The position numbers and the translations under genes were made by a program. Positions 1 through 20,080 of a stretch of 20,080 nucleotides of DNA are shown piece by piece. How positions within the stretch are numbered: the first letter of the stretch is position 1; every line of letters starts with the position of its first letter. The stretch lies in the IMG/VR virus record IMGVR_UViG_2740892269_000001. One strand, written 5' to 3'. The notes under the pieces are model-generated. The model ran no database searches. It had not been told where the DNA came from and saw only the letters and a program-made list of their open reading frames with translations. The DNA comes from a virus. Taxonomy: Duplodnaviria > Heunggongvirae > Uroviricota > Caudoviricetes.

Positions 1-2
1 GG

Positions 3-212
3 TTATCGCTCGCCACGGGAATATCTGCGGCAGCGGGCTTGTAATGGGTTAAGTGATAACAGATGTCTGGAAATATAGGGGCAAATCCAATCGTCGCCGT
101 ATTCCCGTATTAACAGAGACCGTAGCCCGACGGGGAACTCCTTCTGCGCGAGTGTGCGGGAATAATCAAAAACGATGCACACCGGGGTTACCGGGTACAC
201 ATATTTCATCAT
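3..212 (-). CDS. Hypothetical protein, N-terminal portion only; ORF continues past the window start
   Basis: Minus-strand ORF opening with tandem ATG codons at 212/209 and no stop before the window edge. It lies 45 bp downstream, in the same orientation, of the AT-rich ORF. No recognisable motif. Confidence 0.3.
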   Translation of the reverse strand: MMKYVYPVTPVCIVFDYSRTLAQKEFPVGLRSLLIREYGDDWICPYISRHLLSLNPLQARCRRYSRGER

Positions 213-257
213 GCCAGCGAGTCCGGTTCTGGCACGGAAGAAACCGGACGTTATGAT

Positions 258-668
258 TTAGTGCGGAAATATTTGTGTAGTGTTCTGTATGTTCTCAGTA
301 AAGAGTAATGAATTATCAAAGGTATAGTAATACCTTTTGTTTTCGTGGATATTTGTAATCCATCTGAAAACCCCTGCTGTAGCAAGATTTTTCCTGTATT
401 CGTAAAATGATAACTCTCCTGATTTGAATCCTTTTAAGGTGGCTTCTATAAGGCATTTATTTTTTGAAAATCTTACATTTACAACCTTACCCTGTCCTTT
501 TATTAAAACCGTATTATCGTTTTCAAGAACAAGATGAATATTCTCTGTGGCTAAATAGTAAATGTAATGTGAGACATTGTGACGTTTTAGTTCAGAATAA
601 AACCAGTGATAGTTTAAATTATTTCGCACTTTATCGAATATTTGTTTAAAAATGGCAACCTGAGCCAT
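258..668 (-). CDS. AT-rich hypothetical protein, 136 aa from the ATG at 668 (141 aa if the in-frame ATG at 683 is used); possibly DUF1398 / YdfO-YbcV-like prophage protein
   Basis: Uninterrupted minus-strand ORF in a ~30-35% GC segment, where long ORFs are unlikely by chance. The second ATG (668) is preceded by GAAGG at Shine-Dalgarno spacing; the first ATG (683) has no obvious SD. Family assignment is from memory of E. coli cryptic-prophage proteins, not a search. Confidence 0.5.
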
Positions 669-725
669 TGTAGTACCTTCCATGTGATATGAGGGGGCGT
701 AGTCTGCACGATTATCTAAATTGCT

Positions 726-959
726 TCAATCTGGTCTAACCTGTTTTCTGAGCAATTCAGTAATGTCACTCTTTTCTTTGTTTGCTTCAGGCGAAACTCT
801 TTTTTCTGAGCACAGTCTCCGGCGGCAGGCTTCAATGACCCAGGCTGAGAAATTCCCGGACCCTTTTTGAACAAGAGCGATGTTAATTTGTTCAATCATT
901 TGGTTAGGAAAGCGGATGTTGCGGGTTGTTGTTCTGCGGGTTCTGTTCTTCGTTGACAT
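726..959 (-). CDS. Small basic ribbon-helix-helix-like DNA-binding protein, 77 aa; possibly YnfO/YlcI-like
   Basis: Minus-strand ORF MSTKNRTRRTTTRNIRFPNQMIEQINIALVQKGSGNFSAWVIEACRRRL...: basic N-terminus, short beta-strand, then two helices, the pattern of Arc/MetJ/CopG-type RHH proteins. It is the first gene of the leftward cluster, immediately left of cos. Confidence 0.5.
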   Translation of the reverse strand: MSTKNRTRRTTTRNIRFPNQMIEQINIALVQKGSGNFSAWVIEACRRRLCSEKRVSPEANKEKSDITELLRKQVRPD

Positions 960-1100
960 GAGGTTGCCCTGTATTCAGTGTCGCTGATTTGTATTGTCTG
1001 AAGTTGTTTTTACGTTAAGTTGATGCAGATCAATTAATACGATACCTGCGTCATAATTGATTATTTGACGTGGTTTGATGGCGTAGATGCACGTTGTGAC
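960..1100 (-). promoter_or_regulatory. Intergenic region expected to carry the leftward promoter and 5' UTR of the RHH-led cluster; boxes not assigned
   Basis: Non-coding A/T-rich spacer between the RHH gene start (959) and cos. Several weak -35/-10-like hexamers on the minus strand, none convincing enough to call. Confidence 0.2.
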
Positions 1101-1129
1101 ATGTAGATGATAATTATTATCATTTTGCG

Positions 1130-1330
1130 GGTCCTTTCCGGCGATCCGACAGGTTACGGGGCGGAAGGCGCGCGGGTTTTCGCTATTTATGACAATTTTC
1201 CGGTTTAAGGCGTTTCCGTTCTTCTTCGCCGTAACCTAATGTTTTTATTTAAAACACCCCCTGAAAAGAAAGGAAACGACAGGTGCTGAAAACGGGCTTT
1301 TTGGCCTCTGTCGTTTCCTTTCTCTGTTTT
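1130..1330. promoter_or_regulatory. cos: cos DNA-packaging site (cosQ - cosN - cosB with R3/IHF/R2/R1-type elements)
   Basis: Sequence ...gatccgacaggttacg | gggcgg... cgcgggttttcgctatttatga... is the lambda right-end/left-end junction as I remember it. Downstream are repeated cgtttcc-type elements (1211-1226, 1268-1283, 1308-1323), including a perfect 12-bp inverted repeat aggaaacgacag/ctgtcgtttcct around an A/T-rich tract, directly upstream of Nu1. Confidence 0.8.
1159..1170 (+). other. cosN 12-nt cohesive-end segment (GGGCGGAAGGCG), variant of the canonical lambda overhang
   Basis: Position fixed by conserved flanks (caggttacg on the left, cgcgggttttcgc on the right). The 12-mer differs from the canonical GGGCGGCGACCT at 5 positions. 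Confidence 0.55.

Positions 1331-1893: not shown

Positions 1894-5170
<3,277 letters not shown>

Positions 5171-16258: not shown

Positions 16259-20080
<3,822 letters not shown>

What the first reader, a model, noticed from the sequence alone, without database searches (positions are those of the whole stretch)
1..959. Leftward three-gene cluster beside cos: RHH-like regulator, AT-rich 136-141 aa protein, and a third gene running off the window
All other genes in the window are rightward late morphogenesis genes. Directly left of cos, three ORFs read the opposite way with short spacers (57 bp and 45 bp): a 77-aa basic ribbon-helix-helix-like protein, an AT-rich protein of unknown function, then the start of another gene. 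An RHH protein leading a small operon is the usual layout of autoregulated toxin-antitoxin and other accessory modules, and leftward genes at this end of lambdoid prophages (bor is the classic case) are expressed from the lysogen. The downstream protein has no PIN, Doc, RelE or CcdB-like motif that I can see, so its function is open. From memory these resemble the YnfO/YlcI and YdfO/YbcV (DUF1398) proteins next to the terminase remnants of E. coli cryptic prophages, which are themselves uncharacterised.
Basis: partly seen in the sequence, partly recalled or inferred. Interest (0 to 1): 0.5.

Follow-up and report, generated by a model that had tools for sequence, protein, structure and literature searches.

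The report
Known YnfO–YdfO prophage genes beside cos
Two of the three leftward genes are real but already catalogued, uncharacterised lambdoid-prophage genes (a small Arc-like DNA-binding protein and a DUF1398 protein) that are inherited independently rather than as a toxin–antitoxin pair, and the third "gene" is a non-conserved reading frame cut by an IS2 insertion.

Summary
The window starts at the lysis/packaging junction of a lambda-like E. coli prophage.

- **726–959 (−):** a 77-aa DUF3950 protein, 96% identical to K-12 YnfO.
- **258–668 (−):** a DUF1398 protein about 80% identical to YdfO (PDB 2HH8). It follows after 57 bp, exactly as in the Qin prophage.
- **How common:** matches occur in 5211 of 5426 complete E. 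coli genomes.
- **Third gene:** it does not run off the window. Window 1–89 is the right end of IS2 (target duplication ATCGT). The interrupted frame carries stop codons and mostly non-synonymous changes in relatives, and is probably non-coding.
- **Toxin–antitoxin/operon idea:** not supported. DUF3950 is in 155 phage records and DUF1398 in 43. None of about 40 non-Escherichia loci pairs them. Lambda places an opposite-strand gene between them, and K-12 YcgX is an orphan DUF1398.

In other Enterobacterales DUF3950 sits alone and reversed in PICI-type satellites, beside palindromic operator-like repeats.

Verdict: ordinary, already-known accessory genes of unknown function. Modest interest.

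The parts
1..89 (+). Right end of insertion sequence IS2 (the window begins inside the element)
   Evidence: 100% identity to 'IS3-like element IS2 family transposase' ends in thousands of E. coli records. Homology to related phages starts at base 90. The complete 1.33-kb IS2 is seen at the same junction in IMG/VR contig L133.
90..94 (.). ATCGT, the 5-bp target-site duplication of the IS2 insertion
   Evidence: The same 5 bases of the uninterrupted relative L006 (3001-3005) flank both IS2 ends in L133.
90..212 (-). Phage-derived part (41 codons) of the 'third gene'; probably non-coding junction DNA
   Evidence: Intact relatives have a 53-54-aa frame. A variant at 88.6% identity has an in-frame stop and 11 non-synonymous against 3 synonymous differences, while the neighbouring DUF1398 gene has only synonymous ones. 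The start codon is absent from lambda. PGAP does not annotate it. There is no Pfam, PHROG or NCBIfam hit. The same block lies downstream of Rz in BP-4795 and holds the annotated bor promoter in HK629.
258..668 (-). DUF1398 gene (YdfO/YbcV/YcgX family), 136 aa; an alternative upstream ATG at 683 gives 141 aa
   Evidence: Pfam PF07166 E 3e-43. E 1.4e-69 to E. coli YdfO, PDB 2HH8. 100% identical to proteins of phages ev099, PhiR49_1, Kati and Chlobot. GC is 31-37%.
711..738 (-). Best sigma-70-like promoter match in the cluster (TAGACC-16-GATAAT, 9/12), overlapping the end of the DUF3950 gene and pointing into DUF1398
   Evidence: This is a consensus match only, not evidence of function.
726..959 (-). 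DUF3950 gene (YnfO/YlcI family), 77 aa. Residues 1-50 form the conserved Arc-like core; residues 51-77 are a variable tail.
   Evidence: Pfam PF13132 E 2e-20 and NCBIfam YlcI_YnfO_N 35.2 bits against 30. The alignment shows a nearly invariant N-terminus and several unrelated C-terminal tails. The AF2 model has residues 1-18 extended, then helices 19-32 and 34-52.
1029..1061 (.). Inverted repeat ATCAATTAATACG / CGTCATAATTGAT (13-nt arms, 7-nt spacer), 70-100 bp upstream of the DUF3950 start; candidate operator
   Evidence: It is identical in lambda. It is not found upstream of the BP-4795-type DUF3950 gene, so the operator assignment is only a guess.
1129..1170 (.). cos core: cosQ-like GGGTCCT (1129-1135), nick site 1158/1159, 12-nt overhang GGGCGGAAGGCG
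   Evidence: The right end of the linear lambda record aligns to 1158. The cosQ motif name is from my own knowledge of lambda.

Best explanation
The region holds two independent accessory ('moron'-type) genes of a lambda-like prophage, in the Qin-type arrangement, plus an IS2 insertion scar.

(1) The 77-aa DUF3950 protein (a YnfO orthologue) is most likely a small dimeric Arc/Mnt-like ribbon-helix-helix DNA-binding protein.
- The N-terminal strand ..T-R-N-I-R-F-P would pair with that of a second subunit and read the major groove.
- The two helices (19-32 and 34-52) would form the dimer core.
- The tail after residue 50 is variable.
- It is transcribed against the late operon, as a stand-alone regulator. 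I infer that it represses promoters next to its own gene. In the PICI homologues this looks like a divergent-promoter switch with three palindromic sites. In this window the only candidate site is the inverted repeat at 1029-1061.

(2) The AT-rich DUF1398 gene is separate cargo of unknown biochemical activity.
- It probably has its own promoter (711-738) as well as any read-through from upstream.
- It is soluble and cytoplasmic. It is dispensable for lytic growth.
- In K-12 cryptic prophages its homologues are under host control.

(3) The 'third gene' is non-coding junction DNA interrupted by IS2.

Shown: the family memberships, the layout, the lack of co-inheritance, the IS2 junction and the non-coding pattern of ORF3.
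Inferred: the RHH fold, DNA binding, autoregulation, and transcription in the lysogen.
For: Identity of the genes:
- Pfam, NCBIfam and PDB matches.
- Identical layout in K-12 Qin.
- Present in 5211 of 5426 E. coli genomes, with the contiguous arrangement in 2629.

RHH fold:
- AF2 gives an extended N-terminus followed by two helices, with pLDDT 84-87 over residues 21-50.
- Foldseek's top hits include ParD2 and a Rv0300/Rv0301 complex chain.
- hhalign places RNIRFPNQ...GSGNFS on Arc FNLRWPRE...GRSVNS in register, P 0.015.

Independence of the two genes:
- DUF3950 is in 155 phage records, DUF1398 in 43.
- BP-4795 has DUF3950 alone, reversed, between Rz and HNH-TerS.
- None of about 40 non-Escherichia DUF3950 loci has DUF1398 within 6 kb.
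- Lambda has ybcW on the other strand between the two genes.
- K-12 YcgX is a DUF1398 gene with no DUF3950 neighbour.

Regulator role:
- Distant homologues sit reversed in int-AlpA-AntA-[DUF3950]-primase-capsid islands.
- These have lineage-specific palindromes (for example GGTGCACATACACC, GTGTTTAAACAC) at about -105, -80 and -30 from the ATG. A TTGAC motif on the opposite strand lies next to the second palindrome.

Dispensability and exchangeability:
- lambdap78 knock-down gives an efficiency of plating of 1.3-1.9.
- Lambda escapers of the Vulcan defence replace their segment with the Qin ynfO-ydfO layout and remain viable.

Host-controlled expression of homologues:
- ydfO rises 117-fold after ionic-liquid shock.
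- ybcV falls 10-fold in a pdhR mutant.

ORF3 non-coding. IS2.
Against: - No sigma-70-like promoter better than 8/12 lies upstream of the DUF3950 gene.
- The inverted repeat at 1029-1061 is not shared with the BP-4795-type context, although the predicted DNA-reading strand is identical.
- The operator-like palindromes of the PICIs could belong to another regulator such as AlpA.
- The apparent co-variation between strand residues and palindrome cores may only reflect shared ancestry.
- The 57-bp same-strand spacing without a terminator still allows co-transcription in the Qin-type layout.
- Nothing here says what DUF1398 does. Its AF2 model failed (pLDDT 44).
Confidence: 0.6

Rival explanations
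1. Toxin-antitoxin-like or autoregulated two-gene module. The RHH protein would be the antitoxin or repressor, and the DUF1398 protein the toxin or effector it controls. Both would be transcribed as one operon.
For: - Same strand, 57-bp spacer and no terminator-like site between the genes.
- The first protein is RHH-like.
- A weak PHROG match to HicB-like antitoxins, E 0.055.
- The pair is adjacent in the contiguous arrangement in 2629 E. coli genomes.
Against: - The pair is not conserved. At least 112 phage records have DUF3950 without DUF1398.
- No pairing in about 40 non-Escherichia loci.
- An orphan DUF1398 exists (YcgX).
- In lambda and DLP12 the two genes are split by an opposite-strand gene.
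- The lambda-type and Qin-type DUF3950 proteins have different tails after residue 50 next to the same kind of DUF1398.
- DUF1398 hits no toxin or defence model above noise.
- YdfO alone was produced for an NMR structure (2HH8), which argues against strong toxicity (inference).
- A promoter-like site sits between the genes.
Confidence: 0.07
2. Packaging accessory factor. The DUF3950 protein would bind DNA near cos and assist or modulate the terminase small subunit. This would explain why it always sits at the start of the packaging module.
For: - It lies 199 bp from cosN here and in lambda.
- It also lies just before HNH-TerS-TerL in BP-4795-type phages, which use an unrelated terminase.
- In two satellite-encoded relatives the DUF3950 domain is fused to the first 53 positions of Terminase_2 (P0332, P0299).
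Against: - It is transcribed against the late operon in every phage context seen.
- In PICIs it lies several kb from terS.
- In BP-4795 the HNH gene separates it from the terS-proximal gap where cos is expected (the location of cos there is my inference from HK97).
- By my own knowledge, minimal cos fragments of about 200 bp lacking this gene are sufficient in cis. Nu1, A, IHF and FI account for lambda packaging in vitro.
- The known satellite packaging redirector Rpp is a winged-helix protein, not DUF3950.
Confidence: 0.1
3. The 77-aa frame is conserved only because the DNA next to cos is constrained or homogenised by recombination, and it is not a functional protein gene.
For: The first 150 nt of the gene are 98-100% identical between this window, lambda and other lambdoid phages, while the neighbouring DUF1398 gene is only about 84% identical. 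Substitution patterns within E. coli phages are therefore uninformative. The RefSeq records of HK629 and HK630 carry no feature there.
Against: Relatives at 36-57% amino-acid identity, in unrelated DNA contexts (PICI islands of Serratia, Klebsiella, Xenorhabdus, Proteus and others), keep the same motifs I-R-F-P and N-F-S-A-W-V-x-[ED]-A-C and the same length. Only selection on a protein explains this.
Confidence: 0.03

Closest known systems
YnfO-YdfO of the E. coli K-12 cryptic prophage Qin
   Same: Identical layout: the Nu1 homologue nohA diverges from ynfO (77 aa), followed after 57 bp by ydfO (136 aa). The 77-aa protein is 96% identical to YnfO-type proteins. The DUF1398 protein is about 80% identical to YdfO.
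   Different: Here the genes belong to a prophage with a full set of late genes rather than a remnant. IS2 is inserted 45 bp downstream of the DUF1398 stop. The DUF1398 allele is the ev099/PhiR49_1 type (100% identity), not the K-12 allele.
Right end of phage lambda and DLP12: bor, lambdap78 (YbcV-like), lambdap79 (YbcW), and the 64-aa YlcI-like ORF missing from older lambda-type records
   Same: Same position between Rz and cos, the same two families and the same orientation. The first 55 residues of the DUF3950 protein and the upstream DNA up to cos are nearly identical.
   Different: Lambda has about 560 bp extra carrying ybcW on the opposite strand, a different DUF3950 tail (64 aa against 77), and bor further left. 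ybcW is the trigger of the Vulcan defence, and lambda escapers convert to the layout seen here.
Arc and Mnt repressors of phage P22 (ribbon-helix-helix family)
   Same: Size. Predicted strand-helix-helix order. The strand motif N-[IL]-R-[FW]-P and the G-x-x-x-S start of the second helix align in register. Like them, it is a small phage-encoded regulator outside the main immunity region.
   Different: No significant sequence or profile match. The operator is unknown. It does not sit beside an antirepressor gene that it would control. A basic, threonine- and arginine-rich 12-residue N-terminal arm precedes the strand.
DUF3950 genes of PICI / capsid-forming PICI satellites of Enterobacterales
   Same: Same domain (Pfam hits). 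Also a lone gene oriented against the surrounding operon.
   Different: 36-57% identity. They lie between AntA and the icd/primase genes, with three palindromic repeats around the promoter. No such repeats are seen in this window. One E. coli island has a copy fused to a TerS N-terminal domain.

Membership tests
Pfam DUF3950 / NCBIfam YlcI_YnfO_N | Profile match above the curated threshold | tested here: met
   PF13132 scores 72.8 bits against a cut-off of 25. NF041551 scores 35.2 bits against 30.
Pfam DUF1398 (YdfO/YbcV/YcgX) | Full-length profile match above threshold, and similarity to the solved member | tested here: met
   PF07166 scores 147 bits against 22, covering profile positions 1-119 of 119. 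E 1.4e-69 to 2HH8 YdfO.
Ribbon-helix-helix (Arc/MetJ) superfamily | Short N-terminal strand followed by two helices joined by a tight G-x-S/T/N turn | tested here: met
   The AF2 model has an extended N-terminus, then H19-32 and H34-52 with G33/G35 and S38 at the turn. pLDDT is 84-87 over residues 21-50. The strand itself is not formed in a monomer model.
Ribbon-helix-helix (Arc/MetJ) superfamily | Significant sequence, profile or structure match to known members | tested here: inconclusive
Ribbon-helix-helix (Arc/MetJ) superfamily | Obligate dimer that inserts a two-stranded sheet into the major groove of repeated operator half-sites | not testable with these tools
   Only a candidate inverted repeat at 1029-1061, and operator-like palindromes next to distant homologues.
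Type II toxin-antitoxin module | The two genes are inherited together as a unit | tested here: not met
   155 phage records against 43. None of about 40 distant loci is paired. Orphan YcgX. ybcW lies between them in lambda.
Type II toxin-antitoxin module | The second protein belongs to a toxin family or is toxic and neutralised by the first | tested here: not met
   For family membership: no toxin or defence model above noise (Pfam HEPN_AbiA_CTD 15.8 bits against 27; PADLOC Csx23 E 0.025). Toxicity itself is not testable here.
Lambdoid 'moron' / lysogenic-conversion gene (bor type) | Inserted between functional modules, oriented against the late operon, with deviant base composition | tested here: met
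   The genes lie between the lysis genes and cos on the opposite strand. GC is 31-37% (DUF1398) and 42-47% (DUF3950) against 52-58%.
Lambdoid 'moron' / lysogenic-conversion gene (bor type) | Own promoter and terminator; expressed from the repressed prophage | tested here: inconclusive
   A 9/12 promoter-like site lies before DUF1398 and nothing better than 8/12 before DUF3950. No terminator-like site was found. The K-12 homologues ydfO and ybcV are transcribed from cryptic prophages.
Phage head or envelope protein (RefSeq/PHROG label for DUF1398) | Structural role in the virion or the cell envelope | tested here: not met
   The label comes only from phrog_413 and RefSeq naming. The sequence has no hydrophobic segment or signal peptide (read directly). 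lambdap78 knock-down does not reduce plating.

The most novel reading that the evidence does not exclude
DUF3950 proteins are a so-far unrecognised family of Arc-like repressors shared by lambdoid prophages and their PICI satellites.

- In the satellites, the protein would hold the divergent replication/packaging operon off through three palindromic operators, playing the role that Stl plays in staphylococcal islands.
- The copy beside cos in lambdoid prophages, including lambda itself, would be a lysogen-expressed regulator. It might cross-talk with satellites or with incoming relatives.
- The DUF3950-TerS-N fusion in some islands would then be a packaging-interference derivative.
Probability: 0.2. 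Interest if true: 0.65.

Novelty: already known. Interest (0 to 1): 0.3.

Why it matters
As it stands the finding adds little. These are catalogued genes of unknown function, present in almost every E. coli genome and in phage lambda itself.

Three practical points follow.
- The pair should not be annotated or screened as a toxin-antitoxin or defence module.
- The 'head protein' and 'envelope protein' labels on DUF1398 are unsupported.
- The third ORF should not be called a gene.

The one thread worth pulling is the DUF3950 protein. It is a conserved, probably DNA-binding gene 200 bp from cos in lambda. It is missing from older lambda-type annotations and was not tested in the genome-wide lambda knock-down screen. 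Its relatives occupy a switch-like position in phage satellites.

Tried and rejected
- AlphaFold2 on the DUF1398 protein with a shallow alignment (16 sequences, at least 65% identical) failed (pLDDT 44).
- Foldseek of the DUF3950 model against viral predicted structures gave nothing meaningful. The afdb50 library was not available.
- Sequence and profile searches of the PDB with DUF3950 found nothing.
- A permissive Pfam scan of 23 family members showed no RHH family.
- Rfam found no RNA family in 1-1400.
- I considered that DUF3950 might be related to Rpp, the PICI protein that redirects lambda packaging. Rejected: Rpp has a winged helix-turn-helix fold.
- I followed a published statement that YdfO overexpression protects against oxidative stress. 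The cited paper names YfdK, YfdO and YfdS of prophage CPS-53, not YdfO, so this is a mis-citation.
- YdfO is treated as an essential-gene candidate in one in-silico target study. I did not trace the source.
- I looked for the inverted repeat 1029-1061 upstream of BP-4795-type DUF3950 genes. It is absent.
- The viral-contig scan for DUF1398 returned only 99-100% identical copies and gave no view of distant relatives.
- A greedy longest-ORF gene caller produced spurious 200-400-aa antisense ORFs over the PICI DUF3950 genes. These were discarded after inspection.
Full report
**What is in the sequence**

The window opens at the junction between the lysis genes and the packaging genes of a lambda-like E. 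coli prophage. Nu1 starts at 1348. The right end of the linear lambda record aligns to window 1158, so the cos nick lies between 1158 and 1159.

To its left, on the minus strand, are three ORFs:
- 726..959, 77 aa.
- 258..683, 141 aa. The ATG at 668 is preceded by GGAAGG and gives 136 aa; NCBI's automatic annotation pipeline (PGAP) starts the homologues in relatives at the equivalent ATG.
- 3..212, 69 aa.

The rest of the window is rightward late genes. The one long minus-strand ORF (17274-19301) is antisense to an open J-like frame of 1015 codons that runs off the end.

**Identity of the two real genes**

- The 77-aa protein matches Pfam DUF3950 (72.8 bits, cut-off 25) and NCBIfam YlcI_YnfO_N.
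- The second protein matches DUF1398 over the whole profile (147 bits). It also matches E. coli YdfO, PDB 2HH8, with E 1.4e-69.
- The layout is that of the K-12 cryptic prophage Qin: nohA diverging from ynfO, then 57 bp, then ydfO.
- The DNA from 90 to 1350 is 98-99% identical to phages PhiR49_1, Kati, Chlobot and ev099.
- Some match to 1-1350 is present in 5211 of 5426 complete E. coli genomes, with a median of four places per genome. The contiguous arrangement is in 2629 genomes.
- Lambda carries the same two families between bor and cos. It has about 560 bp more, encoding ybcW (lambdap79) on the other strand, and a different tail on its 64-aa DUF3950 protein.

**The third 'gene'**

Homology to related phages begins at base 90. 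Bases 1-89 are 100% identical to the right end of IS2.

An IMG/VR contig with the same junction (L133) shows the whole 1.33-kb element. It is flanked by a 5-bp duplication, ATCGT, and sits between the KilA-N/hypothetical genes and the DUF1398 gene of an otherwise ordinary prophage.

The 69-aa frame is therefore 41 phage codons fused to IS2 sequence, and it ends inside the window. The evidence that even the uninterrupted frame is not a gene:
- In uninterrupted relatives the frame is 53-54 aa.
- In a variant found in 18 loci (88.6% identical) it has an in-frame stop after 32 codons. It shows 11 non-synonymous against 3 synonymous differences. The adjacent DUF1398 gene in the same loci has only 1-2 synonymous changes.
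- Its start is absent from lambda.
- PGAP does not call it.
- No family library matches it.
- The same block follows Rz in BP-4795. In HK629 it carries the annotated bor promoter.

I read it as non-coding junction DNA.

**Is the 77-aa protein a ribbon-helix-helix protein?**

Within E. coli the first 50 residues are almost invariant, while at least five unrelated tails follow.

Evidence in favour:
- An AlphaFold2 model (mean pLDDT 69; 84-87 over residues 21-50) gives an extended N-terminus, helix 19-32, a one-residue turn at G33, and helix 34-52.
- Foldseek's non-significant top hits include ParD2 and a Rv0300/Rv0301 antitoxin-complex chain.
- A profile of the family aligns in register with a small alignment of Arc, Mnt, CopG, ParD and NikR N-termini. 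RNIRFPNQMIEQINIALVQKGSGNFS falls on Arc FNLRWPREVLDLVRKVAEENGRSVNS, with P 0.015. The shared N-[IL]-R-[FW]-P strand and the G-x-x-x-S helix cap are the hallmarks of Arc and Mnt (my own knowledge).

Evidence against:
- No RHH Pfam model is hit by any of 23 members.
- PDB sequence searches are empty.
- BLASTP against Arc is empty.

I put the RHH assignment at roughly 0.8. It is a good lead, not a demonstration.

**Are the two genes a unit?**

The evidence says no.
- By tblastn the phage collection has DUF3950 in 155 records and DUF1398 in 43, so at least 112 phages have the first without the second.
- BP-4795 and the Stx1a/Stx2c/Stx2a phages carry DUF3950 as a single reversed gene between Rz and an HNH-TerS-TerL module of HK97 type.
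- The family is small: 108 representatives at 50% identity among 1.84 billion proteins.
- A scan of one genome per species gave about 40 genuine relatives outside Escherichia, at 36-57% identity. None has a DUF1398 gene within 6 kb.
- Conversely, K-12 YcgX is a DUF1398 gene next to bluR with no DUF3950 nearby.
- In lambda and DLP12 the two are separated by ybcW on the other strand. ybcV and ybcW respond to PdhR bound between them.
- In this window the best sigma-70-like match of the whole cluster (TAGACC-16-GATAAT, 9/12) lies at 738-711, just upstream of DUF1398.
- DUF1398 matches no toxin or defence model above noise.
- YdfO alone was made for an NMR structure.
- Knock-down of lambdap78 does not reduce plating.
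- Lambda mutants that escape the Vulcan defence do so by recombining with Qin. They lose ybcW and acquire the layout seen here, so the two layouts are interchangeable for lytic growth.

The toxin-antitoxin reading keeps only the weak points of adjacency and an RHH-like first gene.

**What the distant relatives add**

Outside Escherichia most DUF3950 genes lie in islands built as integrase, AlpA, AntA-like, [DUF3950 on the opposite strand], small genes, D5/Toprim primase, then capsid. These are PICI or capsid-forming-PICI satellites. A published survey also lists 'YlcI/YnfO family protein' among cf-PICI genes.

Upstream of these genes there is a recurrent architecture:
- Two copies of a lineage-specific palindrome lie about 23 bp apart near -105 and -80. 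Examples are GGTGCACATACACC, GGTGCGGCCACACC, CTGTGCGCACAG and GTGTTTAAACAC.
- The motif GTCAAC follows. On the other strand this reads TTGAC, a possible -35 for the divergent operon.
- A TATAGTGT-like element comes next.
- A third copy of the palindrome lies near -30.

In about half of the loci, 3-5 copies are found where at most 0-5 of 30 shuffles reach that number. This looks like a small repressor controlling its own promoter and a divergent one. Islands with the same predicted DNA-reading strand (TTKGIRFP) have similar palindrome cores.

Two cautions apply. Shared ancestry could explain the match between strand and core. The sites could also belong to another regulator.

In this window the only comparable element is the inverted repeat ATCAATTAATACG/CGTCATAATTGAT at 1029-1061. 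It is identical in lambda but absent from the BP-4795 context. No minus-strand promoter match better than 8/12 precedes the gene.

**Rivals considered**

- *Packaging role.* This is suggested by the constant position before the terminase genes and by two satellite proteins in which the domain is fused to the first 53 positions of Terminase_2. Against it: the orientation is always against the late operon, the gene is far from terS in satellites, and the known packaging redirector Rpp has a different fold.
- *A purely DNA-level explanation of the conservation.* This is excluded by the distant protein homologues.

**DUF1398**

Its function remains unknown.
- The AT-rich composition (31-37% GC) fits horizontally acquired cargo.
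- Host-dependent transcription of its K-12 homologues (117-fold induction of ydfO by an ionic liquid; PdhR dependence of ybcV) fits the same picture.
- The 'putative envelope protein' and 'head protein' labels have no support. The sequence has no hydrophobic segment, and the lambda homologue is dispensable.
- A literature claim that YdfO protects against oxidative stress is a confusion with YfdO.

**Verdict**

The feature is already known as a pair of uncharacterised families. It is nearly universal in E. coli and present in lambda. Its interest is modest.

The most novel reading still open is that DUF3950 is an Arc-like repressor family shared by lambdoid prophages and their satellites.

Noticed in passing
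window 1-94; L133 (reverse complement) about 2494-3829: An IS2 element is inserted in the late operon between the KilA-N/hypothetical genes and the DUF1398 gene, with target duplication ATCGT. It lies in the path of Q-dependent late transcription towards cos and Nu1, so it could be polar on the head genes.
   Followed up: partly
window 1159-1170: The 12-nt cohesive-end sequence reads GGGCGGAAGGCG where lambda has GGGCGGCGACCT. Six of 12 bases differ, although cosQ, cosB and Nu1 are lambda-like. The same variant is presumably present in ev099/PhiR49_1-type phages.
   Followed up: no
L008 6001-6363 and 5590-5772; L012 4714-5103: PICI-type islands of E. coli and relatives encode a 120-129-aa protein that joins a DUF3950 domain to the first 53 positions of the Terminase_2 small-subunit profile. 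It sits next to a second, plain DUF3950 gene. Both are reversed relative to the island operon. This may be a packaging-interference or regulatory protein.
   Followed up: partly
L052-L091, 30-110 bp upstream of the DUF3950 start (for example L083 5890-6000, L056 5870-5990): Three copies of a lineage-specific 12-14-bp palindrome (GGTG-N6-CACC type) occupy fixed positions around divergent promoters in PICI islands. This is an operator-like layout, and I found no report of it in the papers I searched.
   Followed up: partly
L019-L050, L069, L084 (genome-contig hits): About 30 assemblies of unrelated bacteria (Kitasatospora, Cohnella, Pedobacter, Shewanella, Arcanobacterium 'plasmid' and others) contain lambda DNA, often as a contig of about 3.5 kb. 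This is almost certainly sequencing-control contamination. One paper in the literature search reports YlcI/YnfO in such an Arcanobacterium genome.
   Followed up: no
lambda segment absent from this window (between the equivalents of window 725 and 810; L003 3364-3570): lambdap79 (YbcW) is reported as the trigger of the Vulcan NADase defence. Escapers lose it by recombination with Qin. Prophages with the layout of this window lack the trigger gene.
   Followed up: partly
literature (PMC4077768 against PMC3105296): The statement that YdfO overexpression raises oxidative-stress resistance cites a paper that actually reports YfdK, YfdO and YfdS of CPS-53. This is a gene-name mix-up.
   Followed up: yes
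window 2319-2359, 2717-2968, 4725-5000, 16789-17033, 18763-19014: Five runs of N mask parts of the terminase A, portal and J genes. The first J-gene run (245 nt) is not a multiple of three, so the ORF lists break there.
   Followed up: partly
window 1262-1329: A strong hairpin lies just upstream of Nu1, in the cosB region. It produces spurious weak microRNA matches in Rfam.
   Followed up: no
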